This document shows positions 329 to 26,698 of a DNA stretch of 64,000 nt, piece by piece. The notes under the pieces are model-generated. The model was not told where the DNA came from, made no database searches, and worked only from the letters and a program-made list of their open reading frames with translations. The translations under genes were made by a program, and so were the position numbers. Source of the stretch: Clostridiales bacterium (GTDB taxonomy: Bacteria > Bacillota > Clostridia > Christensenellales > CAG-314); the NCBI GenBank assembly GCA_022508305.1, contig JAFLVM010000001.1, positions 962,341 to 1,026,340 of the forward strand. Reading direction: 5' to 3'. Every line of letters starts with the position of its first letter. Within the stretch, counting starts at the first letter, position 1.

Positions 329-357
329 TTGAAAATAAACTGAAAGAATGCTATACT
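329..357 (+). promoter_or_regulatory. Sigma-70-like promoter of the lipid operon (TTGAAA-17-TATACT)
   Basis: -35 at 329-334, 17-nt spacer, -10 at 352-357. The ATG of the first gene lies only 7 nt downstream, with no SD motif. Confidence 0.5.
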
Positions 358-364
358 TTACCGT

Positions 365-2323
365 ATGGAAAACGTAAACAAATACGCAAAACTCAAGATA
401 AACGAAGTACGTAACTCCGCCTTTACCTTTCAATCGCTGTTCGACGTCATTCACAGTCAAGGCGACCGCATTTTTTGCGAGTATACGCGCCGTTTTCAAA
501 CGGTGGAGGTGAGTTACCCTGAATTTAAATCATACGCCCTTAAAACAGCGACCTTTTTGTCCGCTTCGCTAAGTAGTTGCAAAGGCGAATACGTCGGACT
601 GTACATGGAAAACTGTGTCAATTTCGTCGCCGCGTTTTGGGCTATTCTTATGCTTGGTTGTAAGCCGTTGCTACTTAACGCTCGCTTGCCCGTTGTTATC
701 AATCAAAAGGTGCTTAGCGACGTCAACTGCAAAGTAGTAGTGGCAAACGAGTCGCTTTCGTCGCACGAACTAACAGACAGCACCGTGTATTTGGAGAGCG
801 GCGTAGGACTGTCAAATGCAATTTGCGCGCAAGAGGAGTTCAAAGACTTTGACTGGGCGAATGAAATAGCATTGACGACAACAGCTACGACTTTGAACGT
901 AAAAGTGTGTACCTACACAGGTAAAGAGATAACCAACGAGGTGTTGAACGCCGAGTATATAATAGCGCACAGCAAGCAGGTCAAGCAGCACTACAAGCAC
1001 AGGCTCAAGCTGTTGGCATTTTTGCCTTTGTATCACATTTTCGGCTTGATTGCCACCTACTTTTGGTTTGGCACTTTTGGCAGGACGTTTGTTTTCCTGT
1101 CCGATTACTCAACCAACACGCTGCTCAACACGGTGAAAAAACATCAAGTGACGCACGTGTTTGCCGTACCGCTACTGTGGCACTCGTTACATAGGGAAAT
1201 CGTCAAGCAGGTGGCGAGTTTGGACGAAAAGCAGCAGCGCCGTTTTGAAAAGGGCGTCAAACTGAGCTTATCTATGCAAAACGCATTCCCGAGCAGCGGT
1301 TTGAGGTTTGCCAAGAGAATTTTCAGAGAAGTGCAGGACAAGACCTTCGGACCTTCCGTCAAGTTTGCAATTTCCGGCGGCGGTTACGTGTCTCCCGACG
1401 CGCTGAAACTTGTCAATGCTATCGGCTACCCACTGTACAACGGTTACGGCACTACCGAAATAGGCATAACCTCGGTAGAGCTGCGTTCCCGACCCAAGTA
1501 CCGCATGAAAGCAAGCGTAGGCAAACCGTTGCCAACCGTCAGCTACAAGATCCAAGACGACGTTTTGTCGGTTAAGGGAAGTTCGCTGTGTTCGACAATC
1601 ACGTCAAACGGCGTAACAACCGAACTGGGCGACAACTGGTACAACACCAACGATATTGCTCGTGTAGAAGGTGACGGTTACTACTTCATTGACGGCAGAC
1701 GCGACGACGTGTTCGTGGGAGTCAACGGTGAGAAGCTTAACCCCGATTTGGTAGAAAAGCAACTCAAGTTTACAACCGTCAACAACTACTGCGTGCTTGG
1801 CTTGGACGTTGAAGGCAAACAAAGGCTGTCGTTGGTGGTTCAAGTTCCCAACGGACAGTTTGGTGCGCGCTTGAAACGCATAGTTGACGAAATTACGCAA
1901 AACGTCGAGGCGCTTGCAAAGCTCGGCTACAGCATAGAGGCAATTTTCCTTACGAGCGACGCAATTTGCAATGAAAATGCCATTAAAGTGAGCAGGAAGG
2001 CGCTTTTAAGGCTAATAGATAGCAAGAAAGTGCAGTTAACGTCCATTTCCGAGTTAAATTTGGAGCGATTGGACAACGTAGAGCTGTTGTCTCGCGAAAC
2101 CTGCGACGGCGTAAAGAAAATCATGGCTACGATACTCAACCGTGACGTAAACGACGTTGCCGACAACGCGCATTTCGTGTTCGATTTGGGCGGCACAAGC
2201 CTTGACTACTGCACGTTGCTCGTTGAACTTAAGAAAGCCTACGGAGTGGAGTTCGACTTACAGGATAACAGCTGCGCAACGGCGGCAGAATTCAGCAATT
2301 ACATTATTTCACACTTGAAATAA
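365..2323 (+). CDS. Acyl-activating (AMP-binding, acyl-CoA/ACP synthetase-like) enzyme fused to a C-terminal carrier (PCP/ACP) domain
   Basis: 652 aa. Contains YNGYGTTE, GDGYYFIDGRRDDVFVGVNGEKLNP and a C-terminal FDLGGTSLDY phosphopantetheine-attachment-type motif. The P-loop/A3 motif is divergent (TTTATTLNVK). Confidence 0.75.
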   Translation: MENVNKYAKLKINEVRNSAFTFQSLFDVIHSQGDRIFCEYTRRFQTVEVSYPEFKSYALKTATFLSASLSSCKGEYVGLYMENCVNFVAAFWAILMLGCKPLLLNARLPVVINQKVLSDVNCKVVVANESLSSHELTDSTVYLESGVGLSNAICAQEEFKDFDWANEIALTTTATTLNVKVCTYTGKEITNEVLNAEYIIAHSKQVKQHYKHRLKLLAFLPLYHIFGLIATYFWFGTFGRTFVFLSDYSTNTLLNTVKKHQVTHVFAVPLLWHSLHREIVKQVASLDEKQQRRFEKGVKLSLSMQNAFPSSGLRFAKRIFREVQDKTFGPSVKFAISGGGYVSPDALKLVNAIGYPLYNGYGTTEIGITSVELRSRPKYRMKASVGKPLPTVSYKIQDDVLSVKGSSLCSTITSNGVTTELGDNWYNTNDIARVEGDGYYFIDGRRDDVFVGVNGEKLNPDLVEKQLKFTTVNNYCVLGLDVEGKQRLSLVVQVPNGQFGARLKRIVDEITQNVEALAKLGYSIEAIFLTSDAICNENAIKVSRKALLRLIDSKKVQLTSISELNLERLDNVELLSRETCDGVKKIMATILNRDVNDVADNAHFVFDLGGTSLDYCTLLVELKKAYGVEFDLQDNSCATAAEFSNYIISHLK

Positions 2324-2353
2324 AATTTAAAATAGCAAAAGAGAAGGTAAATT

Positions 2354-4339
2354 ATGTTGAAACGATTTAGAAATTTAGACAAGCCTTGGAAAGAAATTCT
2401 TTACGCTTGTTCCGGATTCGGACCCAATCTGCTTATGGTGCTTATGGGCGCGTTCTTCACCGACGCAGTTAATCCCAGCGCATTGGGTATCACCGAAGAA
2501 ACTGCGGGAAATGCAGTGCAGACCATTACCGGCGCGTGCCTTATTTTCCCCATACTGTTTTCCGTGTTGTGGTTCATCGGCAAGGCGTTTGACGGACTGA
2601 TTGACATTCCGTTTGCGTCCATTACCGACACCCTCAAGACCAAGTGGGGTAAGCGCCGTCCTCCCATACTGATTTGCAGTATACCTATGGTTGTCAGCTA
2701 CGCAATGTGTTGGGTTCCAATCATGGACGTTCCGTTTGGTGCTGTGGGTGACGCTGTCACCAAGGCTCAGATTATCAACACTGTTTGGATTTTCTTTTGG
2801 GCGTTGATATTCTTCGCAACCTACACGATGTGTCTGATTGCATTCTACGGCAGTCTGTCAACGGTATGCGCCGACGAAAAGCAACGCGTACGCGTTTCCA
2901 GCTACAAATCATTCTTCGACACTATTTCCTACGTTATCGTGTACGCGCTTGTACCCCTCATTTTGGGTAAAACGGGCTTACACGTAGACAAGTTGGTATT
3001 CATATTGCTACCCTTGATGGTAACAATTATCATACCGCTGTTTATGATAAAGGAAGGCGACAAATGGGAAGCCAAAGCCAAAGCTGAAGGCTACGACGTT
3101 ACTCCGCTTGCGGAGGAACCGAGAGTGGGTATTCGCGAAAGCTTGAAGTTGACCTTTACTAACAAGCCCTTTATGTGGTGGGTACTCGTCAACTCCTGCG
3201 CGTTCTTCGGTTTGCAGATGTTCCTGTCAAGCATGAACACGCTCATTTTGGGCGGAATGAACCTAACCTCGTCGCAGATGGCAATCCTTAACACTTGCGC
3301 GTTCGCTCCCGTGCCACTCATGCTGTACCTGTTCAACAAGCTCAAGCAAAAGAAAGGCATTAGGTTTGCTTATCAAACCTGTTTGCTGAGCTTTGCCGTG
3401 TGTATTATGGCGTTCGTCTTGGGCGGTCAGTTCGTAATGGGTGACAACGTTACCGTCAAGATTATCATAGGCTCGGCGGGTGGTGTCGTTGGTTCTTGGG
3501 CAATAGGTTCCTTCTTCATGATGCCATTCCTGATTCCTTCGCAAGTGGCGGCGGTGGAAGAAAAACTCACGGGTAAAAACCACTCTGCAATGTTCTTCGC
3601 GGCTCAGTCCGTCGCAACTACCGTCGTTGGCGCAGTCGCAAGCGGTTTGGTTTACGAAAACATAAAAAATATTTGGTTTTCAAGGACTGCAAGTGGCGTT
3701 CAGTGGGCGCAAGACATCAATGAAGCGGCGAAATTATTTGGCGTAACGGAAAATATCAACAACAACGTATTCAATCTCAGTTGGTTCCTTGTTCCCGCTA
3801 TTGTCAGCCTGATGTGTATTGTAGGCTTTATCGTAGCGTTCAAAATGCCCCGTAACTTCGGCGCGAAAGAGGTCGCCAAGAAAATGGGCATGGAAGACGT
3901 TTACCTTGCTAAAAAGGATTTGTTCCCCGATGAACCCGACTATCCGTTTGAAGGCGAGTCGTTGATTGTCAACAATACGCTGTGGATTTTGACGGGTAGC
4001 ATATTCGGCTTTGTGTGGAACTACGGCATTTTGAAGGCCGTTAACACCTTCGCTAAGAAAAAGATAGGCGTGTGGCATTTCGTTTTGTCCATATTCATTC
4101 CTTTCTACGGCGCGTATCTTGCCGTCAGACTTAGCAACGAAATTCACGACAAATGCGTAGAACTGGGCATTCAGTCCAAAAAGCTTACGGCAATTCACGT
4201 AATCTTCAGCGTGCTGTATCTTAATCTGGTGTCCGAAAGTATCTTGCAACACAAGCTCAACAAGATTGCCGAAATTCAAAACAAAGCACTTGAAGCGGCA
4301 ACCGAAACTGTCACCGAAGGAGAAGCAGCAGCCGTATGA
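2354..4339 (+). CDS. MFS transporter of the GPH/MFS_2 (MelB/MFSD2-like) type with an extra C-terminal membrane extension
   Basis: 661 aa, polytopic. GPH signature DGLIDIPFASITDTLKTKWGKRRP. The last ~150 aa add further TM helices (WILTGSIFGFVWNYGILKAVN...). Confidence 0.75.
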   Translation: MLKRFRNLDKPWKEILYACSGFGPNLLMVLMGAFFTDAVNPSALGITEETAGNAVQTITGACLIFPILFSVLWFIGKAFDGLIDIPFASITDTLKTKWGKRRPPILICSIPMVVSYAMCWVPIMDVPFGAVGDAVTKAQIINTVWIFFWALIFFATYTMCLIAFYGSLSTVCADEKQRVRVSSYKSFFDTISYVIVYALVPLILGKTGLHVDKLVFILLPLMVTIIIPLFMIKEGDKWEAKAKAEGYDVTPLAEEPRVGIRESLKLTFTNKPFMWWVLVNSCAFFGLQMFLSSMNTLILGGMNLTSSQMAILNTCAFAPVPLMLYLFNKLKQKKGIRFAYQTCLLSFAVCIMAFVLGGQFVMGDNVTVKIIIGSAGGVVGSWAIGSFFMMPFLIPSQVAAVEEKLTGKNHSAMFFAAQSVATTVVGAVASGLVYENIKNIWFSRTASGVQWAQDINEAAKLFGVTENINNNVFNLSWFLVPAIVSLMCIVGFIVAFKMPRNFGAKEVAKKMGMEDVYLAKKDLFPDEPDYPFEGESLIVNNTLWILTGSIFGFVWNYGILKAVNTFAKKKIGVWHFVLSIFIPFYGAYLAVRLSNEIHDKCVELGIQSKKLTAIHVIFSVLYLNLVSESILQHKLNKIAEIQNKALEAATETVTEGEAAAV

Positions 4340-4998
4340 ACAGATTTTTCCTGTGGTTTGTAAAGCTGACGGGACTACCCCTCCAATACTTTTACTTCCG
4401 CAAGAAGATTTATTACGAAGACAAGAGCATTCAGCGTCGCAAAATTAAGGGCGGCGCTCTTGTCGTAAGCAATCACTATTCGGTTTACGACTATCCGCTA
4501 ATTATGTACACCTTTTTCGGTAGAAGCCTACGTACGCTTGTGGCAGAGGTGATTTACCAAAAGGGCAAATTTATGTCCTGGTTTATGAAGCGGTTGGGCG
4601 CTATTCGCGTAGACAGAGATAGCTACGACTTTTCCTTTATGTCCGCTATGGTCAAATGCCTCAAGGATAGGCAAGTGGGATTGGTGTTTCCCGAGTCGCG
4701 TATAGGCGAGGAAAATGAAAAGCTTGACGGAATGTTAGAGTTCAAGCCCAGTTTCGTGTACATGGCGCTGGAAGCGGGTGTTCCCATCATTCCCGTGTAT
4801 GTGAACGGCGTGTACGGCAAGGACAAGAGGAAAAAGCACGACCGCGCGCGGATTATCATCGGCAAGCCCATCAATTTGCAAGAGATGTACGACGAGAACA
4901 AGTCGGAAAAGGACAACATAAACGATTTGTGTAATTACGTGCGCGAATATATCAAAAATTTAGGAAAACTACTTGAACAAAAGAAGAGAGAAGAGTAA
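4336..4998 (+). CDS. PlsC-family (1-acyl-sn-glycerol-3-phosphate / lysophospholipid) acyltransferase
   Basis: 220 aa. HX4D motif NHYSVYD and FPESRIG block. The ATGA start overlaps the stop of the upstream gene. Confidence 0.8.
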   Translation: MNRFFLWFVKLTGLPLQYFYFRKKIYYEDKSIQRRKIKGGALVVSNHYSVYDYPLIMYTFFGRSLRTLVAEVIYQKGKFMSWFMKRLGAIRVDRDSYDFSFMSAMVKCLKDRQVGLVFPESRIGEENEKLDGMLEFKPSFVYMALEAGVPIIPVYVNGVYGKDKRKKHDRARIIIGKPINLQEMYDENKSEKDNINDLCNYVREYIKNLGKLLEQKKREE

Positions 4999-4999
4999 A

Positions 5000-5698
5000 A
5001 TGAAGAAAGACCAAGTGCCGCTTTTAGCGCGAATATTCGACCCGCGAATGTGGCTTTACGATTTGTTCAAGATTACAGGCTCGTTGCCCATTTTGCTGGA
5101 TTTGCGACTCAAGCGAGTATTTGTAAATACTGAAACAAAGCGCGGCAGAATGCGCGGCAAATATTTGATTGCCTCCAACCACGTGTCATACGAAGATCCA
5201 ATAATACTGTTTAACACCTTTTTTTGGCGACGCGTATGCTTTGTAGCTGTGGACGAACTGTTCAAGCACAAGTTTTGGGGACCTGTATTCAAGACGTTTG
5301 GCTGTATTCCGATAAGCAAGGAAAACGTATCGGTACAAACCTTCAAGAAGGTGGAAAACAGTCTTTACCGCGGACACGTAGTGGGCGTTTTCCCCGAAGG
5401 CACAGTAGCCCAAGACGAAAACATGAACGCATTTAAGTCGGGTATCGTCATGATGGCGGTCATGAGCGGGGCGGACATCTTGCCGGTGTACATTGTCAAA
5501 CGAACAAACCGCTGGCACCGTCAAGAAGTGCTAATTGGCGAAAAAATCATACTTAAAGAGCATATCTCGTCGGAATTTCCCTCAATAGAGGAAATAGAAA
5601 ATTTGACCAATCTGCTCAAAGAGAGAGAATTGGAATTGGAACGCATAAGCAGAGAAAGACGGGAAAAAAGAGCAAATAAAAAGAGGAAAAAACAATGA
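5000..5698 (+). CDS. Second PlsC-family acyltransferase
   Basis: NHVSYED (HX4D) and VFPEGT motifs. I prefer ATG at 5000 (MKKDQVPL...), just after the upstream stop, over the ORF-track start at 4973. Confidence 0.8.
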   Translation: MKKDQVPLLARIFDPRMWLYDLFKITGSLPILLDLRLKRVFVNTETKRGRMRGKYLIASNHVSYEDPIILFNTFFWRRVCFVAVDELFKHKFWGPVFKTFGCIPISKENVSVQTFKKVENSLYRGHVVGVFPEGTVAQDENMNAFKSGIVMMAVMSGADILPVYIVKRTNRWHRQEVLIGEKIILKEHISSEFPSIEEIENLTNLLKERELELERISRERREKRANKKRKKQ

Positions 5699-7260
5699 GA
5701 AAACAGCAAGAAAAAATCGTAAGTTTTACCAGAGAAGATTTCAGACGTTTTACCGATGCCGAGACCTTTGAACGTATCGGTGACGTTACGACTATCGTAG
5801 AATTTTTGGATTCAATTCACAAATTCGGCGACGCTCCTGCAATCGGCAAGACAGACGGTACCGTTGCAACCTTCAACGAGCTGTACGCAGACGTGCTCAA
5901 GGTGTGCAGTGTTTTGACCGGCAAAGGCGTAGAGCGGCGTACCAACGTAGGACTTGTTTGCGGCAACAACTATTCATTTGCCGTAGCCTCGCTCGGTATC
6001 ATGGCGTACGGCTGTGTTGCAACTTTACTCCCCGCGCACCTCGACGACAAAACTCTCTACGGTTGCTCGAAGAAGTACGATTTGACAGCGGTAGTGTACG
6101 AGGACTCACTAACTGAAAAAATGACGCTCATTCAGACGGCTACTCAACTCGTAACTTTGCCTATTTCGGAAATATTTGCCGAGAAGAAAGTTGACGGTAG
6201 CTTGCTGTGTAAGGATTTGAAACCCGACGACAACGCCTGCATAATTATGACGGGCGGCACCACGGGCAGAAGCAAGGGCGCAGTGCTTTCTCACACGGCG
6301 CTGATGGCGGGTATGCTCAACGGCTGCTTTGCAATGAACAGACTGTATGGCAGAGCCTACTACTGTCTAATCCCGCTCACCCACGTATTCGGATTTATTC
6401 GCAACTTGCTTACGAGTTTGTACACAGGTAGCGTAATCTATTTCAACACCGACAAACGCCTTATGTTTGAGGAGCTGCAAAAGTACAAGCCTGACTGTCT
6501 CGTAATCGTGCCTGCTCTTGCGGAATTGTTCCTTAACCTTGCTAAAGCGTACGGCTTAGGTTTTTTAGGTGGCAAACTTGACATGATTGTATGTGGAGCG
6601 GCAAACGTTCCGCCCTATCTGCTCAACGAGTGGTTCAAGCTGGGCGTGCTGTTTGGCGCAGGCTACGGACTTACGGAGTTTGCCAACATGGTTAGCGGTA
6701 ACGTAGAGGGCAATTGCAAATCGGCGGAGTCCGTCGGTATGCTGTACCCCGAACAGGAAGCAAAAATTGTCAACGGCGAGCTGTGGCTAAGAGGTCGCAA
6801 CATGATGAAAGGCTACTACGCCGAGCCTGAGGAAAACGCGCACGCATTCGAGGACGGTTGGTTCAAAACAGGCGACCTTGCAAGGTTCGACGATGACAAC
6901 TACCTGTACATAATAGGCAGACTTAAGGACGTAATAGTTCTGCCCAACGGTGAAAACGTGTCTCCCGCCTACGTCGAGGCTAAAATAAACGAACTAAACT
7001 ACATTCAGGACAGTCTTGTGTACGAAAGCAAAAACAGCTTCGGCGCAACGATACTGAAATGCGAGGTGGTTCTTCGTCAAAGCGTCGTAAAGGCTTTGGG
7101 AATCGAACAGGACAAGCTTCAAGAGTACGTTCAAGCGGGCATTGACAAAGTAAACGCAAATTTGTTAGACTATGAAAGGGTGTCGGAGCTTGTAATTCGC
7201 GACAAGGATTTCGACCGTAGCCCCAGTATGAAGATTATCAGACCGAGGAAAATGTACTAA
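5695..7260 (+). CDS. AMP-dependent synthetase/ligase (fatty acyl-CoA/ACP synthetase-like)
   Basis: 521 aa. MTGGTTGRSKGA P-loop, GYGLTE, TGDLARFDDDNYLYIIGRLKD. ATGA overlap with the upstream gene. Confidence 0.85.
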   Translation: MRKQQEKIVSFTREDFRRFTDAETFERIGDVTTIVEFLDSIHKFGDAPAIGKTDGTVATFNELYADVLKVCSVLTGKGVERRTNVGLVCGNNYSFAVASLGIMAYGCVATLLPAHLDDKTLYGCSKKYDLTAVVYEDSLTEKMTLIQTATQLVTLPISEIFAEKKVDGSLLCKDLKPDDNACIIMTGGTTGRSKGAVLSHTALMAGMLNGCFAMNRLYGRAYYCLIPLTHVFGFIRNLLTSLYTGSVIYFNTDKRLMFEELQKYKPDCLVIVPALAELFLNLAKAYGLGFLGGKLDMIVCGAANVPPYLLNEWFKLGVLFGAGYGLTEFANMVSGNVEGNCKSAESVGMLYPEQEAKIVNGELWLRGRNMMKGYYAEPEENAHAFEDGWFKTGDLARFDDDNYLYIIGRLKDVIVLPNGENVSPAYVEAKINELNYIQDSLVYESKNSFGATILKCEVVLRQSVVKALGIEQDKLQEYVQAGIDKVNANLLDYERVSELVIRDKDFDRSPSMKIIRPRKMY

Positions 7261-7262
7261 TC

Positions 7263-7511
7263 ATGACGAAAGAAGAAATTTTAGTTAAACTTAAGGATAT
7301 TTTCAAGCTTGTAGTGCATAATGGTGTAGAAGTGGACCATCTTGACGCTTCCGCCAACATCACTTTGGACTTGGGAGTCAACTCCGTTGCGCTGATTTAC
7401 TTGGTGCTTGCAATAGAAAAAACTTTCAACGTCGAAATGCGCGACGTTACCTACAGCTCATTCAAAACGGTAGGCGAAGTGGTAGATTACATCTACGAAA
7501 GGGTTAAGTGA
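7263..7511 (+). CDS. Acyl carrier protein-like small carrier protein
   Basis: 82 aa, acidic four-helix size. LDLGVNSVALIYL resembles the DSL attachment motif, with N in place of D. Confidence 0.65.
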   Translation: MTKEEILVKLKDIFKLVVHNGVEVDHLDASANITLDLGVNSVALIYLVLAIEKTFNVEMRDVTYSSFKTVGEVVDYIYERVK

Positions 7512-7930
7512 TGAACAAATCGCATTGGCAACTTGCAGACTTGTACGCGGGCGCGCACATTCGTGTTCCCGTTGGCAACATTCACCACCACGGCATATAC
7601 ATTGGTAACGGAGAGGTAGTGCAATTCGGTCTGCCTATGGACATGTATCGGGCGGCAAGCGAGGTCAAGGTGCTGCGTTCGCCAATCGAGGACTTTTCGG
7701 CAGGCGCAGCATTCGTGGAAGTGTACGTTTACGACCGCAAGGAAAAGAAACTTAAGCGCAAGGACGACGAGATTGTTCGGTTTGCTTTATCCAAGGTGGG
7801 CGAAGGCGGCTACGATTTGTTACGCAACAACTGTGAGCACTTTGCCAATTTGTGCGTATTCGGCGTTGCGAAGTCCGAGCAAATCGACAGCGTGGCAGCA
7901 AACGTCGCCAAACTGCTTGAAAAACACTAA
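7511..7930 (+). CDS. LRAT/PLAAT (H-Rev107, NlpC/P60-superfamily) domain protein
   Basis: HHHGIYIGNGEVVQF His box and NNCEHFANLC catalytic-Cys motif. The ATG at 7511 overlaps the ACP TGA (TGATG). Confidence 0.75.
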   Translation: MNKSHWQLADLYAGAHIRVPVGNIHHHGIYIGNGEVVQFGLPMDMYRAASEVKVLRSPIEDFSAGAAFVEVYVYDRKEKKLKRKDDEIVRFALSKVGEGGYDLLRNNCEHFANLCVFGVAKSEQIDSVAANVAKLLEKH

Positions 7931-7945: not shown

Positions 7946-8392
7946 ATGTATTGCAGAAATTGTGGAAAAGAAATCAGTGAAGAAACACGTTTTTGTCCCG
8001 CTTGCGGTTCGAAACAGTTTGAAGACAGCAATCGCTCTCACGAGACGTACGACGACCCGTTCACGACGTCAAGTGAGGCAATCGAGGTTGAGGACAAACC
8101 CGCCAAATGTTGGTCGGTGTTTGCGCTCATTGGCAAGATTTTGGGTATAGTGTCACTGTGTCTATGTTGGATTCCGTATCCTCTCGCTATGGCGCTGGGT
8201 ATTCCCGGTATAGTAATGTCCTGCCTTGGCAGAAAGGCGATTGACGATGATTCAATTAGAAACCGTACAATCGGTCTCAAACTTTCCATTGCAGGCACAG
8301 TCGTCTCGTTTGTTGTGTTTATCGTCGTTTACGCAATCATCTTGTCCGGAGCGACGGGCGCTCTTTGGGAATTATTTAGAAGCATGTACTAA
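7946..8392 (+). CDS. Zinc-ribbon membrane protein
   Basis: 148 aa. N-terminal YCRNCG...CPACG ribbon followed by 3-4 hydrophobic helices. Confidence 0.6.
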   Translation: MYCRNCGKEISEETRFCPACGSKQFEDSNRSHETYDDPFTTSSEAIEVEDKPAKCWSVFALIGKILGIVSLCLCWIPYPLAMALGIPGIVMSCLGRKAIDDDSIRNRTIGLKLSIAGTVVSFVVFIVVYAIILSGATGALWELFRSMY

Positions 8393-8407: not shown

Positions 8408-8441
8408 AAAAAAACACCGAGTAAACCACACGGTGTTTTTT
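8408..8441. terminator. Bidirectional terminator between convergent genes
   Basis: Stem acaccg (414-419) / cggtgt (431-436), with an A-run before and a T-run after. Confidence 0.7.
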
Positions 8442-8871
8442 ATTTTATGTAGTTTTGTTGACGTTCGAGTTGAAGCCAACTGGCAATGCTGCTTATCAAC
8501 TCGCCGTTTGTCGGAGAATACTGCGGTTTGATTACCTCTCCGCGCATCAAGTCGTTGAACGCGTACAGGTTGCCGTTCACGTGACAGTCGTTAATGGTGT
8601 TGCGGATTGCGCGTTCTACACGGTTTACGGTGGTGTCAAGCTTGTTGGCAACGGCGGGGTATACGTCCTTGGTCAAGCTAAGCCGCGCGTTGTCCGACTG
8701 TTCGTACCGATAGAGTACCGCCTCTTTGAGATAAGCAGTGCCAACGAGCTTGCTCTTGAACACAAGCGCGTTGAGCAACCGCCCGACGACTATCGACGCA
8801 TCGTGCGATCCGTCGCCGACAATTTGGTTGTGGAGAATTTGGAAATTAGTTTCGGCGCGAGTGTCGCTCAT
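8440..8871 (-). CDS. Stand-alone Spo0A C-terminal (DNA-binding) domain protein, no receiver domain
   Basis: Aligns by eye with the Spo0A C-terminal domain: HDASIVVGRLL..VGTAYLKEAV, VYPAVANKLDTTVNRVERAIRNTI, SPTNGELISSIASWLQLE. ATG at 8871 has an AGGAG upstream. The ORF-track start at 8946 is the alternative. Confidence 0.8.
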   Translation of the reverse strand: MSDTRAETNFQILHNQIVGDGSHDASIVVGRLLNALVFKSKLVGTAYLKEAVLYRYEQSDNARLSLTKDVYPAVANKLDTTVNRVERAIRNTINDCHVNGNLYAFNDLMRGEVIKPQYSPTNGELISSIASWLQLERQQNYIK

Positions 8872-18140: not shown

Positions 18141-18150
18141 AACGTACCTT

Positions 18151-21513: not shown

Positions 21514-22191
21514 TTATTGCTTACTGTTGCGTTTGGATTTGCGAGAAGAGGCTTTTAACTCCTCAAGTTGCTGTTTTAAAGCAAGTATCTTGTTGAAAAT
21601 GATTTCGTTTGCTCGGTTCAATTCCTCTTTTGTGGGCATGGGGCTTGTAGTAGTGATATAGTCGGCAACGTTTATCGGGTTGCCTATGATTACGCTCGCC
21701 CTTTTGAAAAAGCCGTAATTGCCGTCGGTGACAATTGGAATTATTGGCGCGTTTGCGCGGTGAGCAATAACAACGTAGCTTCGCTTAAAGGGGTGTATGT
21801 TTCCGTCGGGAGTGTTGCGCCCTTCGGGGTAAATTTGTACGAGCTGCCCTTTGCTTATCACCTCGGCGCTTTTATTCATGAAACTCATGTCGCGTGTTAT
21901 ACGGTTTGCCTGTATTCCGCCCACGAACTTCATTCCGAAAGACAGAAATTTGTTTTGATAGGGCATTTCCGACGTCACGACGTTTAGCTTGCGCGGCGCC
22001 ACGAGGAACATATTTAAAAAGTAGTCCAACACGTTGTAGTGGTTGGAAATGACGAGCGCCCCGCCCTTTTTCCAGCCTTTTCGTTTGACGTTGTTCTCGT
22101 AGTAGGTTTTGCGCTTGAAGAATATAAGCTGCAAGGGGTACCCAAGTATTATGGCAAGCCAGCGAAAGAAATCGTAAACAAAGTTTTTCAT
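21514..22191 (-). CDS. PlsC-family acyltransferase (paralogue of 4336-4998)
   Basis: 225 aa. SNHYNVLDY (HX4D) and IYPEGRNT. The N-terminus is alignable with the 4336 gene (LQLIFFKRKTYYEN vs LQYFYFRKKIYYED). Confidence 0.8.
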   Translation of the reverse strand: MKNFVYDFFRWLAIILGYPLQLIFFKRKTYYENNVKRKGWKKGGALVISNHYNVLDYFLNMFLVAPRKLNVVTSEMPYQNKFLSFGMKFVGGIQANRITRDMSFMNKSAEVISKGQLVQIYPEGRNTPDGNIHPFKRSYVVIAHRANAPIIPIVTDGNYGFFKRASVIIGNPINVADYITTTSPMPTKEELNRANEIIFNKILALKQQLEELKASSRKSKRNSKQ

Positions 22192-22196
22192 AAATC

Positions 22197-23711
22197 TTAT
22201 TGTTCTTCTTGCTTTTCTTCAAGTTTAGGCTTTGCGGCTTTGCCCATTTGGGAAATTGTCTTAGAAAAACCAAATGACATTGCGAATGCAAGCATGCACG
22301 CCGCGGCAACGACAATCGGCATGTAGCAAATGTAGGAAGCTTCTTCACTCCCTTTCAAAAACACCAAAATAGGACCCGTTGCAATTCCCGCTGCAATACC
22401 TTCGATGAGACCTTCCACGGCAAAGTACATTGAGGACACGCTGACGCCCTTTGACTCAAATTCCACTTGAGCAAGGTGGGAGGGCACGGTGTAGGAAACG
22501 GAAAAGAATGCGCCTATTGCAAAAGATGCAAGCAATCCGCCTACGACGGCAACTGCAGTAAGCTCCCACTCGGACAAATTGCCCTTGACCAAGCTGCACA
22601 CGAACATTACCATCATACCTAATGAAAACATCACCAAAGTGTATCTGAACGCCCAGCCCAAACCGAATTTTTTGACCATTTTGTTGTACAGCAGTATGGT
22701 TAGCGGTACCGGCGCAAATGAGGTTGCCATTACTATGGTCTGGTTTACTTCAACTGTTGAGAACAGCTCGTTTATTCCGCCCAAGAACAGCTGCAAGCCG
22801 ATATTCATAACCGCAGCGGTCAACATCCAGTAGAGGAAGGTTTTGTTTTTGAAAGCGCACGCGATTGACGCTCCAAGCTTCAGGGGCGGTTGTACTTCTA
22901 CACCGTTAGCAGTGGTGTCGGCTTTTTGTTCGTTGGCGGCATTTGTGTCTACTTCATCAGTAGTCGCGGTCTGCTCCTGGGTTTTGTCAACTTTTGTTGA
23001 CTTTTCCTTGAGCATGAACAGCGGAATGAGCATAAACAGCGACAACGGCATGAATATGAGCGCAACGTAGCGAATGTTTACGCCAAGGCTGACGAACAAC
23101 GGTATCAATGCGTAGCCCAAGCTGAAGTAAATCACGTCGCTAATGGACTTTATGTTGGACAAAAACACCGTGTCGCTTTCCTTTTCCGTAATTTCGGAAA
23201 ACGTTGCGTAGTAGGTTAGCATGGTAAGGGTGTAAAAGGTGTAATATACGCACAGCAACACGCCAAACCAAATGGTATTCAAGAGCGTTTCGCCGTTTTC
23301 CAGCGGAATGAGGAACAGCACGTACGCCAGCATCATCGGAACGAAGCCTATTACGATAGCGGGGCGACGTCTTCCCCAGCGTGTTTTAAGTCGGTCGGTA
23401 AAGGAAGAGAGTGGGATGTCAATTACGCCGTCCAAAATCTTTGCAACAAGTATCATAACGCTCCAAACAGCCGCAATTACCAAGTTTTTGTTTAGATACG
23501 TCCAAGATTCAACGTGTTCTTCGAATCCGCCAACGAGCAAAGCGCTGCAAAGATACGAACCCATTATTAGGTTCAGCATGTTTACGCCCAGACCCGAAAA
23601 TCCGTATAAAAAGAGTTTTTTTCTGCTTGTAATCTTTTGCAAAGTCGTTTCCTCAAATTTACATACTACTGTAATGTGGATTTTACGATAAAAATCGACA
23701 TTTGTCAACAC
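22197..23711 (-). CDS. MFS transporter, GPH/MFS_2 (MelB/MFSD2-like) type
   Basis: 504 aa. DGVIDIPLSSFTDRLKTRWGRRRP signature. Stops 5 nt before the PlsC-like gene. Confidence 0.75.
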   Translation of the reverse strand: MLTNVDFYRKIHITVVCKFEETTLQKITSRKKLFLYGFSGLGVNMLNLIMGSYLCSALLVGGFEEHVESWTYLNKNLVIAAVWSVMILVAKILDGVIDIPLSSFTDRLKTRWGRRRPAIVIGFVPMMLAYVLFLIPLENGETLLNTIWFGVLLCVYYTFYTLTMLTYYATFSEITEKESDTVFLSNIKSISDVIYFSLGYALIPLFVSLGVNIRYVALIFMPLSLFMLIPLFMLKEKSTKVDKTQEQTATTDEVDTNAANEQKADTTANGVEVQPPLKLGASIACAFKNKTFLYWMLTAAVMNIGLQLFLGGINELFSTVEVNQTIVMATSFAPVPLTILLYNKMVKKFGLGWAFRYTLVMFSLGMMVMFVCSLVKGNLSEWELTAVAVVGGLLASFAIGAFFSVSYTVPSHLAQVEFESKGVSVSSMYFAVEGLIEGIAAGIATGPILVFLKGSEEASYICYMPIVVAAACMLAFAMSFGFSKTISQMGKAAKPKLEEKQEEQ

Positions 23712-23822: not shown

Positions 23823-23850
23823 AGTAAAGCATCCACGAGATGTCGTATAT

Positions 23851-24108: not shown

Positions 24109-25047
24109 ATGAAGAAGTACATAATTTTGACTGACTCGTCTTGCGACATGTCCCCTGAACTGAGAGAGCATTTCGGCGTAAAGGACTACGTGCCCGGTTA
24201 CGTTCATTTCAGCGACGGCAGAGATTTGAGAACTACTTTGGATTGGAGCAACATTTCCCGCGAAGAGTTCTACGGTGCTCTTTCCGACAAGCGCATGAAG
24301 CTGACAACCGCTCCCAGCAGCCCCGAGGAGTTTTACGAAGTTTTCCGCAAATACGCCGAGCAGGGTTATGACATTTTGAGCATTTCCATTTCGACGGCAA
24401 TCAGTCTTACGTACGCCAACACTCAAAAGGCGGCAGAGCGTATCAAGGCGGAATTCCCCGACTGCGAAATTTATTGCGTAGATTCACTCAGAATGTCCGG
24501 TTCGCAAGCGTTGCTCGTTGCTTACGCTCACATACTTCAAGGTCAAGGCAAGTCCGTCAAAGAGGTTTACGAGTGGCTTGAGGCTAACAAACGCAAGGTT
24601 CACCAAATGGGACCCATTGACGACCTCATTTTCGTTGCTCGCCGCGGACGTATTTCTATGGGCAAGGCAATTTTCGGCAGCTTTGCAGGAGTTAAGCCCA
24701 TGGGCGACAACAACAGCGAAGGCTACGTAACGGTTCACGGCAAGGCAAAGGGCATCAAGAAAGCCCTTGCTCTCACTGTGGAATACATTAAGCAAGCGGC
24801 TGTAGACATTGAAAACCAATTCGTTTACATCGCTCACAGCAACAGAGAAGAGTACGCTCTCACCTTGAAGGAAATGATTGAAAACACACTTCACCCCAAG
24901 GATGTTTTCGTCAGCGACGTTTTCCTGTCCAGCGGCACCAACATCGGTCCCGGTATGATAGGCGCGTATTTCCTTGGCGAGGAAATTTCCGAGGACGGCT
25001 CCAAAGAAAAAGAATTGATGCAAAAGGCAATGGAAAATTGCAAATAA
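24109..25047 (+). CDS. fakB: DegV-family fatty-acid-binding protein (FakB-type)
   Basis: 312 aa. Typical DegV N-terminus MKKYIILTDSSCDM and family length. Confidence 0.8.
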   Translation: MKKYIILTDSSCDMSPELREHFGVKDYVPGYVHFSDGRDLRTTLDWSNISREEFYGALSDKRMKLTTAPSSPEEFYEVFRKYAEQGYDILSISISTAISLTYANTQKAAERIKAEFPDCEIYCVDSLRMSGSQALLVAYAHILQGQGKSVKEVYEWLEANKRKVHQMGPIDDLIFVARRGRISMGKAIFGSFAGVKPMGDNNSEGYVTVHGKAKGIKKALALTVEYIKQAAVDIENQFVYIAHSNREEYALTLKEMIENTLHPKDVFVSDVFLSSGTNIGPGMIGAYFLGEEISEDGSKEKELMQKAMENCK

Positions 25048-25075
25048 TTAGGTAACTGTTACTTCAGAGGAAAAA

Positions 25076-26698
25076 ATGTTAAAAACTATCAACGCGTCGT
25101 GTTACAGCGACATGCTTAAATACGGCGTCAACCACTTGGAAAACTACTGCGAAGTCGTCAATGACCTCAACGTTTTTCCCGTGCCCGACGGCGACACGGG
25201 AACCAACATGGTCATGACCTTGAAAAACGGACTTGGCGCAATGGGCGGCGACGAATTGGGCAAGGTTGCCCAAAGCTTTGCCAACGCCACCGTGTTTGGC
25301 GCAAGAGGCAACTCGGGCGTCATCATTTCGCAATTTTTCAAGGGTGTTTCCGAGGGCTTGAAGAACGCCAACGAGGCGGACGCCAAGTTGTTTTCAAAGT
25401 CGCTGGACATGGGCTGCGACTACGCGTACGCTGCCGTAGCAACTCCCGTTGAGGGCACCGTTTTGACGGTAATGAAGGACGCGACAACGGCAGTCAGAGA
25501 GGAATTGGACGGAATTACCACCGTCAACGAGCTTGTTGACGTGTTTTTGAAGCAGGCGCGTATTACGCTTGAAAACACGCCCAATCTTTTGGAAATTTTG
25601 GCAAAAGCGGGCGTAATTGACAGCGGTGGCGCAGGACTCGTGTACTTTTTCGAGGGAATCGAGCGTTACTTGAAGGGCGAAGCGCTGGAACAGGTGCAAT
25701 CTCAACACCAGGCGGCGGAGTACATTGACTACTCCAAATTTAACAGGTTCAGCAAGTTTGAATTTGGCTACTGCACGGAAACGCTGTTGCAGCTGACTGT
25801 AGACGAAAATGATTTCGACCGCAAGGATTTTAGCGAAAAGCTGCAAGGTTTAGGCGAATCTATCGTAACGTCGTTCGAGGGGGACAAGGTCAAGGTGCAC
25901 GTTCACACCCACACCCCCGAGCGTGTTTTGGAATTTTGTCATCAATACGGCGAGTTTTTGTCACTTAAGATAGAAAATATGTCCGTTCAGCACACGCAGA
26001 CGGTGCAAAAATATCTTTGCGCAACTTCATCCGAGCAGAGCAGCTTTGCCGTTGTGGCGGTTGCTCCTAACGCGACTTTGCAAAAAATGCTGTCGGATAT
26101 GGGCGCGGACGTCGTAGTGCTGAGCGCTGAAGTGCCCTCGTCGCAAGATTTCATCGAGGCTTACGAACACACGGGCGCCAAGCATATTATCGTGTTCCCC
26201 AACAACGCCAATTCAATTCTTTCCGCTAAGCAGGCGGGTAAATTGTACAAACAGGCGGAAGTTGAGGTAATCAAGAGCAAATCCATCGCGGAATGTTACT
26301 CGGCGCTTGCGGTAATCGACTTTTCCGAAACGGACGTTGACGACGTTGTGGACGTGGTGGAGGACACCATTGACGAACTTTACGAGGTCTCTATCGTTCG
26401 CGCCGCCAAGAACACGAAGTTTGGCAGCCGCAACATTTTGAAAGGCGACTACTTTGCAATGTCAGGCGACGACGTGATACAATCCGGAGGCAAGCTGGAG
26501 TACGTCGTGTGGCTCACAGTCAATGAAGTAGTGGAGGACAGGGATTGCGGTGTAATCAACATGTTTTACGGCAAAAACGTAACGAGAGAACAAGTTGAAG
26601 CAATCGCCAACGAAATAGAAAAAGCCCACTTCGGCTTAGAAGTGTGCCTGATTTCCACAGAGGATACGGTGTACGACCTAATTTTGTCCTTCGAATAG
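25076..26698 (+). CDS. fakA: DAK2-domain fusion protein YloV / fatty acid kinase FakA-type
   Basis: 540 aa. Dak2 motif PDGDTGTNM and a DegV-like C-terminal half. Adjacent to the DegV gene. Confidence 0.75.
   Translation: MLKTINASCYSDMLKYGVNHLENYCEVVNDLNVFPVPDGDTGTNMVMTLKNGLGAMGGDELGKVAQSFANATVFGARGNSGVIISQFFKGVSEGLKNANEADAKLFSKSLDMGCDYAYAAVATPVEGTVLTVMKDATTAVREELDGITTVNELVDVFLKQARITLENTPNLLEILAKAGVIDSGGAGLVYFFEGIERYLKGEALEQVQSQHQAAEYIDYSKFNRFSKFEFGYCTETLLQLTVDENDFDRKDFSEKLQGLGESIVTSFEGDKVKVHVHTHTPERVLEFCHQYGEFLSLKIENMSVQHTQTVQKYLCATSSEQSSFAVVAVAPNATLQKMLSDMGADVVVLSAEVPSSQDFIEAYEHTGAKHIIVFPNNANSILSAKQAGKLYKQAEVEVIKSKSIAECYSALAVIDFSETDVDDVVDVVEDTIDELYEVSIVRAAKNTKFGSRNILKGDYFAMSGDDVIQSGGKLEYVVWLTVNEVVEDRDCGVINMFYGKNVTREQVEAIANEIEKAHFGLEVCLISTEDTVYDLILSFE

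What the first reader, a model, noticed from the sequence alone, without database searches (positions are those of the whole stretch)
329..7930. Tightly coupled 7-gene lipid operon: two acyl-activating enzymes with carriers, an MFSD2/GPH-like transporter, two PlsC acyltransferases and an LRAT-like enzyme
Seen in sequence, in order: AMP-ligase fused to a carrier domain (365-2323), GPH-type MFS (2354-4339), PlsC x2 (4336-4998, 5000-5698), AMP-ligase (5695-7260), an 82-aa ACP-like protein (7263-7511) and an LRAT/PLAAT-like protein (7511-7930). Most junctions are overlaps (ATGA, TGATG) or a few nt, which implies one translationally coupled unit. Established knowledge: in E. coli, LplT (an MFS) imports lysophospholipid and Aas (a PlsC domain plus acyl-ACP synthetase using ACP) re-acylates it. 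Eukaryotic MFSD2A, a relative of the MelB/GPH family, transports lysophosphatidylcholine. Inference: this is an expanded, split version of that logic. Two acyl-activation/carrier pairs feed two acyltransferases, so it could build or remodel diacyl lipids entirely from scavenged fatty acids or lysolipids. An alternative reading is a small condensation-domain-free pathway for an unusual acylated lipid that the MFS exports. I do not know a characterised operon with this composition.
Basis: partly seen in the sequence, partly recalled or inferred. Interest (0 to 1): 0.7.

Follow-up and report, generated by a model that had tools for sequence, protein, structure and literature searches.

The report
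Carrier-protein lipid-salvage operon of uncultured Firmicutes
This is a real, tightly packed eight-gene operon, conserved in many uncultured gut and digester Firmicutes, that most likely lets the cell build or repair membrane lipids from scavenged fatty acids and lysolipids instead of making them itself; nobody has studied it experimentally.

Summary
All seven ORFs are at the stated coordinates with the stated domains. An eighth gene belongs to the operon: a zinc-ribbon membrane protein at 7946-8392. Gene junctions are 30, -4, +1, -4, +2, -1 and +15 nt.

The gene set is strongly co-conserved. In 79 metagenome loci carrying a related MFS, 32 of 40 informative loci have PlsC directly downstream and 26 of 28 have the ligase-carrier directly upstream. 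Catalytic residues are invariant.

Natural fusions tie the parts together:
- ligase-carrier-PlsC-PlsC in one 1100-aa protein next to the MFS
- PlsC1-PlsC2
- LRAT-PPTase (87 of the 150 closest family representatives)
- PlsC-LRAT and ACP-LRAT

Related clusters adjoin FakB-MFS-FakA, membrane-anchored alpha/beta hydrolases, patatin and DedA. The window itself holds a second MFS-PlsC pair and a FakB-FakA-hydrolase operon at 21.5-27.8 kb.

The MFS folds like MFSD2A and MelB and keeps their K/R-xx-D-xxx-D sodium-site motif. The LRAT-like protein is a true PLAAT-fold enzyme.

Best reading: an uncharacterised Gram-positive analogue of LplT/Aas lysophospholipid salvage, expanded and carrier-dependent. 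The acceptor lipid, the LRAT role and FASII absence remain untested.

Verdict: new variant of a known kind, of above-average interest.

The parts
329..357 (+). Promoter-like site TTGAAA-17 nt-(TG)TATACT. Its -10 element ends 7 nt before the first ATG and there is no Shine-Dalgarno sequence, so the transcript may be leaderless.
   Evidence: 10 of 12 matches, extended TG. (upstream sequence). (the N-terminus MENVNKY... is conserved in homologues, so the start at 365 is right).
365..2323 (+). LigCP: an adenylate-forming ligase fused to its own carrier domain (A-T didomain, 652 aa). The phosphopantetheine site is Ser612 in the motif LGGTSLD.
   Evidence: AMP-binding 1.6e-37, PP-binding 1.8e-9. (Ser612 in 39/39, YG-x-[TS]-E and GR-x-DD conserved). 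(nearest solved structures are MenE and FadD13, not NRPS A domains).
2354..4339 (+). GPH/MFS_2 transporter of 661 aa with a K77-xx-D80-xxx-D84 cation-site motif and a C-terminal extension of about 200 aa carrying extra helices.
   Evidence: MFS_2, 106.7 bits. (K77 invariant in A1; D80 and D84 present in every sequence that has those columns: 71 and 70 of 74, the remaining 3-4 being gaps). (AF2 pLDDT 78; Foldseek top hits are MFSD2A 8d2t, 7mjs and 8d2s, then MelB). (Na site of MFSD2A is R90/D93/D97; of MelB, R52/D55/D59).
4336..4998 (+). PlsC1: a PlsC/LPLAT-family acyltransferase of 220 aa. It has HX4D (H47, D52), a block II arginine (R94) and block III E120-x-R122.
   Evidence: (H47 and D52 in 44/44). 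(R94 in 42/44, R122 in 41/44). (nearest solved structure is T. maritima PlsC 5kym). (PRK08633, 3.7e-14).
5000..5698 (+). PlsC2: a second PlsC paralogue of 232 aa forming a distinct orthologous group. It has HX4D (H61, D66) and an invariant FPEG, but no conserved arginine after FPEG.
   Evidence: (H61, D66 and FPEG in 36/36).. (PlsC1 and PlsC2 always score as separate groups). (PRK08633, 2.2e-21).
5695..7260 (+). Lig2: a stand-alone adenylate-forming ligase of 521 aa, translationally coupled to the ACP gene. It is probably an acyl-ACP synthetase.
   Evidence: AMP-binding 5.2e-54. (P-loop, YGLTE and catalytic K513 conserved). (best matches are long-chain fatty-acid ligases, all below cut-off)..
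7263..7511 (+). Dedicated 82-aa acyl carrier protein with Ser41. It is not the housekeeping AcpP type.
   Evidence: PP-binding 9.6e-10. (all ACP models below their cut-offs, 44 bits against 66-71). (Ser41 in 32/32).
7511..7930 (+). Soluble LRAT/PLAAT-family thiol enzyme of 139 aa with the dyad His26 and Cys108 in the NNCEHF motif.
   Evidence: PF04970, 74 bits. (PLAAT3, 7e-6). (His26 and Cys108 in 27/27; third polar residue Gln38 is variable). (pLDDT 88.6; Foldseek top hits are HRASLS2, PLAAT3 and PLAAT4). (fusions to PPTase, PlsC and ACP).
7946..8392 (+). Zinc-ribbon plus DUF4190 small membrane protein of 148 aa. It is the eighth gene of the operon; its role is unknown.
   Evidence: (15-nt gap, GGAG ribosome-binding site). 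(a homologue follows LRAT in L014 and L030 and closes the Fak block in a dozen or more related loci).
8409..8445 (.). Hairpin flanked by an A-run and a U-run. It is a likely bidirectional terminator shared with the convergent Spo0A_C-like gene.
   Evidence: dG -13.8 kcal/mol, z -4.4, 0 of 200 shuffles as stable. (sequence).
21514..23711 (-). Second, paralogous MFS_2-PlsC pair. MFS2 is at 22197-23711 and PlsC3 at 21514-22191, 5 nt apart. MFS2 is the orthologue of the short MFS that sits between fakB and fakA in related genomes.
   Evidence: MFS 1.9e-56, PlsC 1.3e-35. (Pfam). (best matches are L064 and the other Fak-block MFS proteins)..
24109..27768 (+). Fatty-acid kinase block: FakB/DegV (24109-25047), FakA (25076-26698) and an alpha/beta hydrolase (26791-27768). 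In many relatives this block is contiguous with the ligase/PlsC cluster.
   Evidence: DegV 2.9e-51; Dak2, FakA-like_M and FakA-like_C; Hydrolase_4..

Best explanation
The operon encodes a self-contained, carrier-protein-dependent line that assembles or repairs membrane glycerolipids from scavenged material. It works like a Gram-positive, expanded version of the LplT/Aas lysophospholipid salvage system.

Proposed steps:
1. The GPH/MFSD2A-like MFS, probably Na+-coupled, brings an amphipathic acyl acceptor to the inner leaflet. The acceptor is most likely a lysophospholipid. (Inferred.)
2. LigCP adenylates a free fatty acid and loads it on its own phosphopantetheine arm. Lig2 does the same onto the small dedicated ACP. 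(The domain chemistry is shown by sequence; the substrate is inferred.)
3. The two PlsC paralogues transfer acyl groups from these carriers to the acceptor or acceptors. They have different acceptor-binding blocks, hence probably different positions or head groups. (Inferred.)
4. The soluble LRAT/PLAAT-type Cys-His enzyme works on the carrier thioester. Most likely it is an editing hydrolase or transacylase that keeps the carriers usable. In many genomes it is fused to the Sfp-type PPTase that primes them. (Inferred from the fusions.)
5. The system cooperates with FakAB and membrane-anchored lipases encoded nearby, which supply fatty acids and acyl-phosphate. (Inferred from gene neighbourhood.)
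For: - Domains and intact catalytic motifs are present in all parts and invariant across 27-74 homologues.
- The operon shows tight translational coupling.
- Gene order is conserved across Clostridia and Bacilli MAGs at 31-66% MFS identity. PlsC lies directly after the MFS in 32 of 40 loci. The ligase-carrier lies directly before it in 26 of 28.
- Rosetta-stone fusions exist. These are LigCP-PlsC-PlsC in one 1100-aa protein beside the MFS and PlsC1-PlsC2, LRAT-PPTase in 87 of 150 representatives, plus PlsC-LRAT and ACP-LRAT.
- The best specific family model for every PlsC domain is the Aas-type acyl-[ACP]-phospholipid O-acyltransferase.
- A second MFS-PlsC pair is in the same window, so the transporter-acyltransferase pairing recurs.
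- Neighbours are FakB-MFS-FakA in about 23 loci, two alpha/beta hydrolases, patatin and DedA.
- The MFS model is closest to MFSD2A, a Na+/lyso-PC symporter, and to MelB. It keeps their K/R-xx-D-xxx-D site.
- In one lineage the cluster sits between jag and mnmE next to dnaA, which is a housekeeping position.
- There are no chain-building or tailoring enzymes, so the acyl groups must come from outside.
- Uncultured reduced-genome gut Firmicutes are reported to lack fatty-acid synthesis (PMC6784871, PMC12306168).
Against: - No substrate has been tested.
- Both ligases are remote from every characterised enzyme, and all NCBIfam hits are far below their cut-offs. A non-fatty acid is therefore not excluded.
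- MFSD2A and the sugar carrier MelB score almost equally in the fold search. GPH members classically carry glycosides.
- A lysolipid needs only one acylation, yet two PlsC paralogues are conserved.
- The MFS is not homologous to LplT.
- I could not check whether the host genome lacks FASII, plsX, plsY or plsC.
- The role of the LRAT-like enzyme rests only on fusions and adjacency.
Confidence: 0.6

Rival explanations
1. The operon is a complete de novo assembly line rather than lysolipid repair. PlsC1 acts as the first acyltransferase and PlsC2 as the second, on a non-acylated glycerol backbone. That backbone is G3P, or an imported glycerophosphodiester such as GPC, or a glycosyl-glycerol from plant galactolipids or sulfolipids. 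The MFS imports this head-group-glycerol. The pathway replaces PlsX/PlsY/PlsC in a fatty-acid auxotroph.
For: - Two conserved, non-interchangeable PlsC paralogues differ in their acceptor blocks, which fits two successive acylations.
- GPH carriers typically move glycosides (gph, glucuronide and melibiose models are the only hits).
- The system has its own ACP and PPTase, so it is independent of FASII.
- From memory, not tested here: acylation pathways starting from GPC are known in Xanthomonas and mitis-group streptococci, and E. coli YihO (GPH) imports sulfoquinovosyl-glycerol.
Against: - The PlsC domains resemble the Aas type and the small LPAAT of T. maritima, not PlsB-type GPATs.
- FakAB nearby implies a PlsY route for sn-1 already exists.
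- The top fold matches are the lysolipid carrier MFSD2A.
- No head-group-processing enzyme is in the cluster.
Confidence: 0.22
2. The operon is a small biosynthetic cluster for a specialised acylated lipid or lipo-conjugate that the MFS exports. This is the reader's alternative and is comparable to aryl-polyene or ornithine-lipid type clusters.
For: - It has a dedicated A-T didomain, a stand-alone ACP and an Sfp-type PPTase of the AusB/HetI/AcpT kind, which is typical of secondary metabolism.
- PlsC2 gives weak hits to OlsA and PlsC1 a weak hit to GlsA.
- In L045/L046 the cluster neighbours a glycyl-radical enzyme and an AONS/SPT-like enzyme plus an SDR.
Against: - There is no condensation, ketosynthase, N-acyltransferase or tailoring enzyme.
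- The cluster is conserved in small genomes and at a housekeeping locus by oriC.
- It is linked to FakAB, lipases and patatin.
- The conserved Na+-symport motif of importers is present.
- All characterised GPH members are importers (from memory).
Confidence: 0.1
3. The operon is a Dlt-like or lipoprotein-type envelope modification. A ligase-carrier pair activates an amino acid or short acid, which is transferred to a cell-envelope polymer or to lipoprotein N-termini. In the lipoprotein case, the LRAT-like enzyme plays the role of LnsA.
For: - A ligase of about 520 aa plus a carrier of about 80 aa mimics DltA/DltC.
- LnsA of S. aureus is a distant LRAT-like acyltransferase acting on lipoproteins (PMC7387801, PMC13559823).
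- The fused type C protein gives a weak DltA hit (4.8e-6).
Against: - There is no DltB (MBOAT), DltD or LnsB (CPBP) partner.
- The LRAT-like protein has no signal peptide or membrane helix (sequence; model), whereas LnsA is secreted.
- The ligases score better with fatty-acid and aryl-acid ligases than with DltA or NRPS A domains.
Confidence: 0.04
4. The MFS is an ordinary sugar symporter that happens to lie in a lipid operon, so the unit is not one pathway.
For: Only GPH sugar-carrier models hit it in NCBIfam. MelB scores nearly as well as MFSD2A in the fold search.
Against: - The MFS is embedded between LigCP and PlsC1 with a 4-nt overlap.
- This position is conserved in 32 of 40 and 26 of 28 loci.
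- A paralogous MFS is again paired with a PlsC, or sits between fakB and fakA.
- No glycoside hydrolase or sugar kinase is adjacent.
Confidence: 0.03

Closest known systems
LplT/Aas lysophospholipid salvage of Gram-negative bacteria (E. coli lplT-aas; fused LplT-Aas proteins, NCBIfam PRK08633)
   Same: An MFS transporter gene is coupled to a PlsC-type acyltransferase and an adenylate-forming acyl-carrier synthetase. In both cases the gene adjacency also occurs as natural fusions. The PlsC domains here match the Aas-type model best (PMC11416262).
   Different: - The transporter is a GPH/MFS_2 protein with a Na+-site motif, not an LplT-family MFS.
- There are two PlsC paralogues instead of one, and two ligases.
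- It uses private carriers (a fused T domain plus a dedicated ACP) and its own Sfp-type PPTase instead of housekeeping ACP.
- It has an added LRAT/PLAAT-type enzyme and a zinc-ribbon membrane protein.
- The host is Gram-positive and has no outer-membrane lysolipid source.
MFSD2A (eukaryotic Na+/lysophosphatidylcholine symporter) and MelB (GPH family)
   Same: MFSD2A gives the best fold matches (E 1.7e-9 to 1e-8), followed by MelB. The same basic-xx-Asp-xxx-Asp motif in helix 2 forms their Na+ site.
   Different: - Sequence identity is only 11-15%.
- No PDB hit is found by sequence, even with a profile.
- There is an extra C-terminal region of about 200 aa with additional helices.
- The substrate is unknown.
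PLAAT/HRASLS and LRAT thiol acyltransferases/phospholipases (PF04970); distantly, LnsA of S. aureus
   Same: The protein is above the Pfam gathering score. It has the His/Cys dyad in an NCEHF motif. The model superposes on HRASLS2, PLAAT3 and PLAAT4 with target-normalised TM-scores of 0.71-0.77. The chemistry goes through an acyl-thioester enzyme intermediate (PMC7387801).
   Different: - It is soluble, with no C-terminal membrane anchor.
- The third triad residue is Gln or variable.
- It is genetically welded to an ACP and is very often fused to a PPTase, and sometimes to PlsC or ACP.
- Its partner is therefore probably a carrier-bound thioester, which is not known for any PLAAT.
Acyl-ACP synthetases (AasS of Vibrio harveyi, AasC of Chlamydia) and the FakAB/PlsX/PlsY/PlsC route of Firmicutes
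   Same: All activate exogenous fatty acids for phospholipid synthesis. FakA and FakB are encoded beside or near the cluster.
   Different: - AasS-type enzymes load the housekeeping ACP. Here the carriers are private and one is fused to the ligase.
- The ligases are not close to any curated family.

Membership tests
LplT/Aas lysophospholipid salvage system | Transporter belongs to the LplT family of MFS | tested here: not met
   NCBIfam gives only GPH-type hits and no LplT model. Pfam's best hit is MFS_2. Fold matches are MFSD2A and MelB.
LplT/Aas lysophospholipid salvage system | PlsC-type acyltransferase with an HX4D motif, genetically coupled to an adenylate-forming acyl-carrier synthetase | tested here: met
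   Fused LigCP-PlsC-PlsC occurs in relatives. PRK08633 is the best specific model but scores far below its cut-off.
LplT/Aas lysophospholipid salvage system | Uses the housekeeping ACP as acyl carrier | tested here: not met
   It has a fused carrier domain plus a dedicated 82-aa ACP that is below all AcpP cut-offs. Its own Sfp-type PPTase is present in many clusters.
LplT/Aas lysophospholipid salvage system | Imports and re-acylates lyso-PE or lyso-PG | not testable with these tools
   This needs transport and acylation assays.
GPH / MFS_2 cation symporters | Match to the family profile above the curated threshold | tested here: inconclusive
   Pfam MFS_2 gives 106.7 bits against a cut-off of 27, which is met. 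NCBIfam TIGR00792 gph gives 53 bits against 231, which is not met.
GPH / MFS_2 cation symporters | Helix-2 cation site: basic residue, xx, Asp, xxx, Asp (MelB R52/D55/D59; MFSD2A R90/D93/D97) | tested here: met
   K77, D80 and D84 have the same spacing. K77 is invariant in alignment A1. D80 and D84 occur in 71 and 70 of 74 homologues, the rest being gaps. Reference residues are from PMC10013850. The positions were matched by motif, not by structural superposition.
MFSD2A-type lysolipid transporters | Lysolipid transport | not testable with these tools
   There is only fold similarity and the lipid-gene context.
LRAT/PLAAT family (PF04970, permuted NlpC/P60) | Profile match, His/Cys dyad with the NCEHF motif, and the PLAAT fold | tested here: met
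   (74 bits against 24).. (His26 and Cys108 in 27/27)..
LRAT/PLAAT family (PF04970, permuted NlpC/P60) | C-terminal (or N-terminal) membrane anchor and a phospholipid acyl donor | tested here: not met
   There is no hydrophobic terminal helix in the sequence or the model. The donor is not testable.
PlsC / LPLAT acyltransferases (PF01553) | Blocks I-IV: HX4D, GxxFxxR, EGxR and a Pro-rich block | tested here: met
   PlsC1 has all four blocks. PlsC2 has blocks I and IV and an invariant FPEG, but lacks a conserved block III arginine. The block definitions are recalled from the literature.
ANL adenylate-forming enzymes | P-loop, YGxTE, GRxxD and a C-terminal catalytic lysine | tested here: met
   for both ligases.
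NRPS amino-acid adenylation domains | Match to the amino-acid adenylation profile above threshold | tested here: not met
   TIGR01733 gives 69 bits against 317. No NRPS A domain appears among the PDB hits.
Dlt D-alanylation system | DltB (MBOAT) and DltD partners beside the ligase and carrier | tested here: not met
   Neither is in the window operon nor in any related locus.
Fatty acid kinase FakA/FakB (neighbouring block) | DegV domain protein plus a Dak2, FakA-like_M and FakA-like_C protein | tested here: met
   (window 24109-26698). (L080).

The most novel reading that the evidence does not exclude
This cluster is the main membrane-lipid line of fatty-acid-auxotrophic, uncultivated Bacillota, and it runs a carrier-protein-based 'Lands cycle'. 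A Na+-coupled MFSD2A-like importer brings in foreign lysolipids or phospholipid fragments. A PLAAT/LRAT-type thiol enzyme moves acyl chains between lipids and a private ACP without ATP, a reaction unknown for this family. Two PlsC paralogues then rebuild diacyl lipids. Together with FakAB this replaces FASII and PlsX.
Probability: 0.2. Interest if true: 0.85.

Novelty: new variant of a known kind. Interest (0 to 1): 0.66.

Why it matters
Large uncultured lineages of gut and digester Firmicutes have small genomes and are reported to lack fatty-acid synthesis (PMC6784871, PMC12306168). How they obtain membranes is assumed rather than known.

This conserved cluster offers a concrete, testable answer and a handle for cultivation, since it suggests which lipids to feed.

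It would also provide several first examples:
- a bacterial MFSD2A-like lipid importer
- a genuine bacterial PLAAT/LRAT enzyme tied to an acyl carrier protein and its PPTase
- a carrier-dependent alternative to the FakAB/PlsX route, which is relevant to bypass of FASII-targeted antibiotics

Tried and rejected
- **PDB sequence searches for the MFS.** A single sequence and a 15-sequence profile found nothing. Only the fold search worked.
- **Reference-genome scan.** I spent the single scan on one sequence and got one locus. I therefore could not profile named species, or presence against absence of FASII.
- **Rfam.** It found only four tRNAs and no riboswitch or leader near the operon.
- **Annotating the rest of the window.** One contig look-up returned only a 5.7-kb contig.
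- **Literature.** Seven full-text searches found no paper on this gene set. They returned only the LplT/Aas, MFSD2A, LnsAB, Fak and reduced-genome papers used as comparators.
- **Amino-acid activation or NRPS-like reading.** Rejected as unlikely.
- **Dlt-like reading.** Rejected because the partner genes are absent.
- **Terminator scan.** It missed the operon's terminator because the loop exceeds its limit. Direct folding found the terminator.
- **FASII/plsX/plsY status.** I could not determine whether the source genome lacks these genes. Only 64 kb plus 10-kb flanks are accessible.

Full report
**1. What is there**

- 365-2323: AMP-binding plus PP-binding
- 2354-4339: MFS_2
- 4336-4998 and 5000-5698: Acyltransferase PF01553
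- 5695-7260: AMP-binding
- 7263-7511: PP-binding
- 7511-7930: LRAT PF04970

Gene junctions are 30, -4, +1, -4, +2 and -1 nt.

An eighth gene follows after 15 nt with its own ribosome-binding site. It is 7946-8392 and encodes a zinc-ribbon plus DUF4190 membrane protein. The unit ends at a stable hairpin flanked by A- and U-runs at about 8409-8445 (dG -13.8 kcal/mol, z -4.4). This hairpin faces a convergent Spo0A_C-only gene.

Upstream, the previous gene has its own terminator at 216-241. A promoter-like TTGAAA-17-TGnTATACT lies at 329-357, ending 7 nt before the ATG. The N-terminus is conserved in homologues, so the start codon is right. The transcript may be leaderless.

GC content is even across the window. 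Rfam finds no regulatory RNA nearby.

**2. Origin**

The window matches an ENA metagenome contig. Its LRAT-like protein is NCBI MCH5151860.1, from a 'Clostridiales bacterium' MAG, on a 1.10-Mb contig.

Every relative I found comes from uncultured MAGs or metagenomes. The labels are Clostridia, Oscillospiraceae, Bacilli and Bacillota. Sources include an anaerobic digester and human gut. Source annotations are generic: 'MFS transporter', 'lysophospholipid acyltransferase family protein' and 'lecithin retinol acyltransferase family protein'.

**3. Co-conservation**

The MFS has over 1,170 relatives at E<=1e-10. A homologue at 57% identity lies in the same seven-gene order, followed by a PPTase. 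It sits between jag and mnmE beside dnaA on a 1.45-Mb contig.

A profile-guided metagenome scan returned 79 loci. I called ORFs in them and scored these against the window's proteins. For MFS proteins of the window's long type:
- 32 of 40 loci with enough downstream sequence have a PlsC directly after the MFS.
- 26 of 28 with enough upstream sequence have the ligase-carrier directly before it.

PlsC1 and PlsC2 always separate as distinct orthologous groups, as do LigCP and Lig2.

Architectures vary informatively:
- the window type, ending in a PPTase or the zinc-ribbon gene
- variants lacking Lig2 but keeping ACP-LRAT
- a PlsC1-PlsC2 fusion
- a single 1100-aa protein with AMP-binding, PP-binding and two acyltransferase domains beside the MFS
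- a type in which the ligase/PlsC block is followed by several further genes: an LRAT-PPTase fusion, a membrane-anchored alpha/beta hydrolase, FakB (DegV), a short MFS_2, FakA, a second hydrolase and the zinc-ribbon protein

Patatin and a DedA/VTT protein occur in other variants.

The window itself carries the second system:
- MFS2 (22197-23711, minus strand) directly followed by PlsC3 (21514-22191)
- FakB, FakA and a hydrolase, divergent from that pair, at 24109-27768

**4. Integrity of the chemistry**

- Both PlsC paralogues have an invariant HX4D motif.
- PlsC1 also keeps the block II and block III arginines (R94, R122). PlsC2 has an invariant FPEG but no conserved arginine after it. This is a consistent difference in the acceptor-binding blocks.
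- Both carrier serines are invariant (Ser612, Ser41).
- Both ligases keep the P-loop, YGxTE, the hinge GRxxD and the C-terminal lysine.
- In the MFS, D80, D84 and R101 are present in every homologue that has those columns, and K77 is invariant in the 15-sequence alignment.

**5. The transporter**

Sequence searches of the PDB fail, even with a profile.

An AlphaFold model (pLDDT 78, pTM 0.76) matches MFSD2A best. The hits are 8d2t, 7mjs and 8d2s at E 1.7e-9 to 1e-8. MelB comes next.

The K77-xx-D80-xxx-D84 motif has the spacing of the Na+ sites R90/D93/D97 of MFSD2A and R52/D55/D59 of MelB (PMC10013850). This points to a cation-coupled importer of the GPH family. It does not settle the substrate.

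The long form has about 200 extra C-terminal residues with further helices. The Fak-linked paralogue lacks them.

**6. The LRAT-like enzyme**

It is above Pfam's threshold and aligns with PLAAT3 through the His and the NCEHF cysteine. Its model (pLDDT 88.6) superposes best on HRASLS2, PLAAT3 and PLAAT4. Peptidoglycan NlpC/P60 enzymes fall far behind. It has no membrane anchor.

In the 50%-identity representative library the family has 522 members at E<=1e-10. Of the 150 closest:
- 87 are LRAT-PPTase fusions
- 2 are PlsC-LRAT fusions
- 1 is an ACP-LRAT fusion

These fusions, plus the invariable ACP-LRAT adjacency, say that its working partner is the carrier protein. I consider three roles:
- An editing thioesterase that frees mis-acylated carriers. 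This fits the fusion with the priming enzyme.
- A transacylase between phospholipid and holo-ACP. This fits the variants that lack Lig2 yet keep ACP-LRAT, and the PlsC-LRAT fusions.
- A third acyltransferase drawing on acyl-ACP.

LnsA of S. aureus is the only bacterial LRAT-like acyltransferase with known function. It is secreted and uses the sn-1 chain of PG (PMC7387801, PMC13559823).

**7. The ligases**

Neither reaches any curated NCBIfam cut-off. The best models are fatty-acid and o-succinylbenzoate ligases. The nearest solved structures are MenE, FadD13, oxalate-, feruloyl- and fatty-acyl-CoA ligases. NRPS-type amino-acid activation is unlikely.

That the substrate is a fatty acid is inferred from context only.

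**8. Interpretation**

The most economical reading is a salvage or assembly line for membrane glycerolipids that does not depend on the cell's own fatty-acid synthesis. Its steps are:
- importer
- two carrier-loading ligases
- two acyltransferases
- a carrier-maintenance or transacylation enzyme

It would work with FakAB and lipases.

It works like LplT/Aas (PMC11416262) but is not a member of that system. The transporter family differs, the carriers are private, and the enzyme set is larger.

Rivals differ mainly in the acceptor (a non-acylated glycerol head group, which needs two acylations) or in the direction of transport (export of a special lipid). The rivals section gives my weights.

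The link to fatty-acid auxotrophy is plausible (PMC6784871, PMC12306168). It is untested, because I could not read the whole genome.

**9. Verdict**

I found no prior description.

It is a new variant of a known kind, built from known enzyme families in a new and widely conserved combination. Interest is about 0.66. It is not revolutionary chemistry as far as shown. It is a concrete, testable candidate for how a large block of uncultured Firmicutes make membranes. It also contains an unexpected PLAAT-ACP-PPTase link.

Noticed in passing
window 21514-27768: A second lipid-scavenging block lies here. An MFS_2 paralogue (22197-23711, minus strand) is followed after 5 nt by a third PlsC (21514-22191). 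Divergent from that pair are a tRNA (23851-23925), FakB/DegV, FakA and an alpha/beta hydrolase.
   Followed up: yes
window 54848-56416 (+) and 50923-52449 (-): There is a third adenylate-forming ligase whose best models are long-chain fatty-acid-CoA ligases (243 bits, below cut-off). There is also a third MFS_2 transporter of 508 aa (MFS_2, 162 bits). Their relation to the operon is unknown.
   Followed up: partly
window 233-292: An exact 30-bp tandem duplication, gctgtcctttttttgcgtaaaatgcggtaa x2, repeats the 3' half and T-tail of the upstream gene's terminator. It lies just before the operon's promoter-like site.
   Followed up: no
window 329-367: The -10 element of the promoter-like site ends 7 nt before the ATG of the first gene, and no Shine-Dalgarno sequence is present. 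The operon mRNA may therefore be leaderless.
   Followed up: partly
window 8440-8946 (-): This 168-aa protein consists only of a Spo0A C-terminal DNA-binding domain (PF08769, 1.6e-20) with no receiver domain. It is convergent with the operon and shares its terminator hairpin.
   Followed up: partly
window 16719-21387 (-): A 1078-aa protein has only faint AAA_22/TPR hits. It is followed by a 473-aa protein with no Pfam hit at all. Both lie directly upstream of the PlsC3-MFS2 pair on the same strand.
   Followed up: no
L045/L046 14266-21119: In an Oscillospiraceae-type variant, a glycyl-radical enzyme and its activase are inserted between Lig2 and ACP-LRAT. An alpha-oxoamine synthase (AONS/SPT-like aminotransferase class I/II) plus a short-chain dehydrogenase follow. 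This hints at a link to sphingolipid-like or other lipid chemistry.
   Followed up: partly
L002-L005 8053-15984: In one lineage the whole cluster, with a PPTase, is inserted between jag and mnmE, a few kb from dnaA, dnaN and rnpA. That is the origin-proximal housekeeping region.
   Followed up: partly
P0331 (1125 aa), P0449, P0399 (hits): Some relatives of the LRAT-like protein are tandem arrays of up to 11 LRAT domains in one polypeptide. Their origin and function are unknown.
   Followed up: no
window 4140-4339 region of the MFS (residues about 440-661): The long-type MFS carries a conserved C-terminal extension. It has a small beta-hairpin segment and about four extra helices, and gives a weak DUF4234 hit. 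The Fak-linked short paralogue lacks it. The extension might be the docking site for the PlsC enzymes.
   Followed up: no
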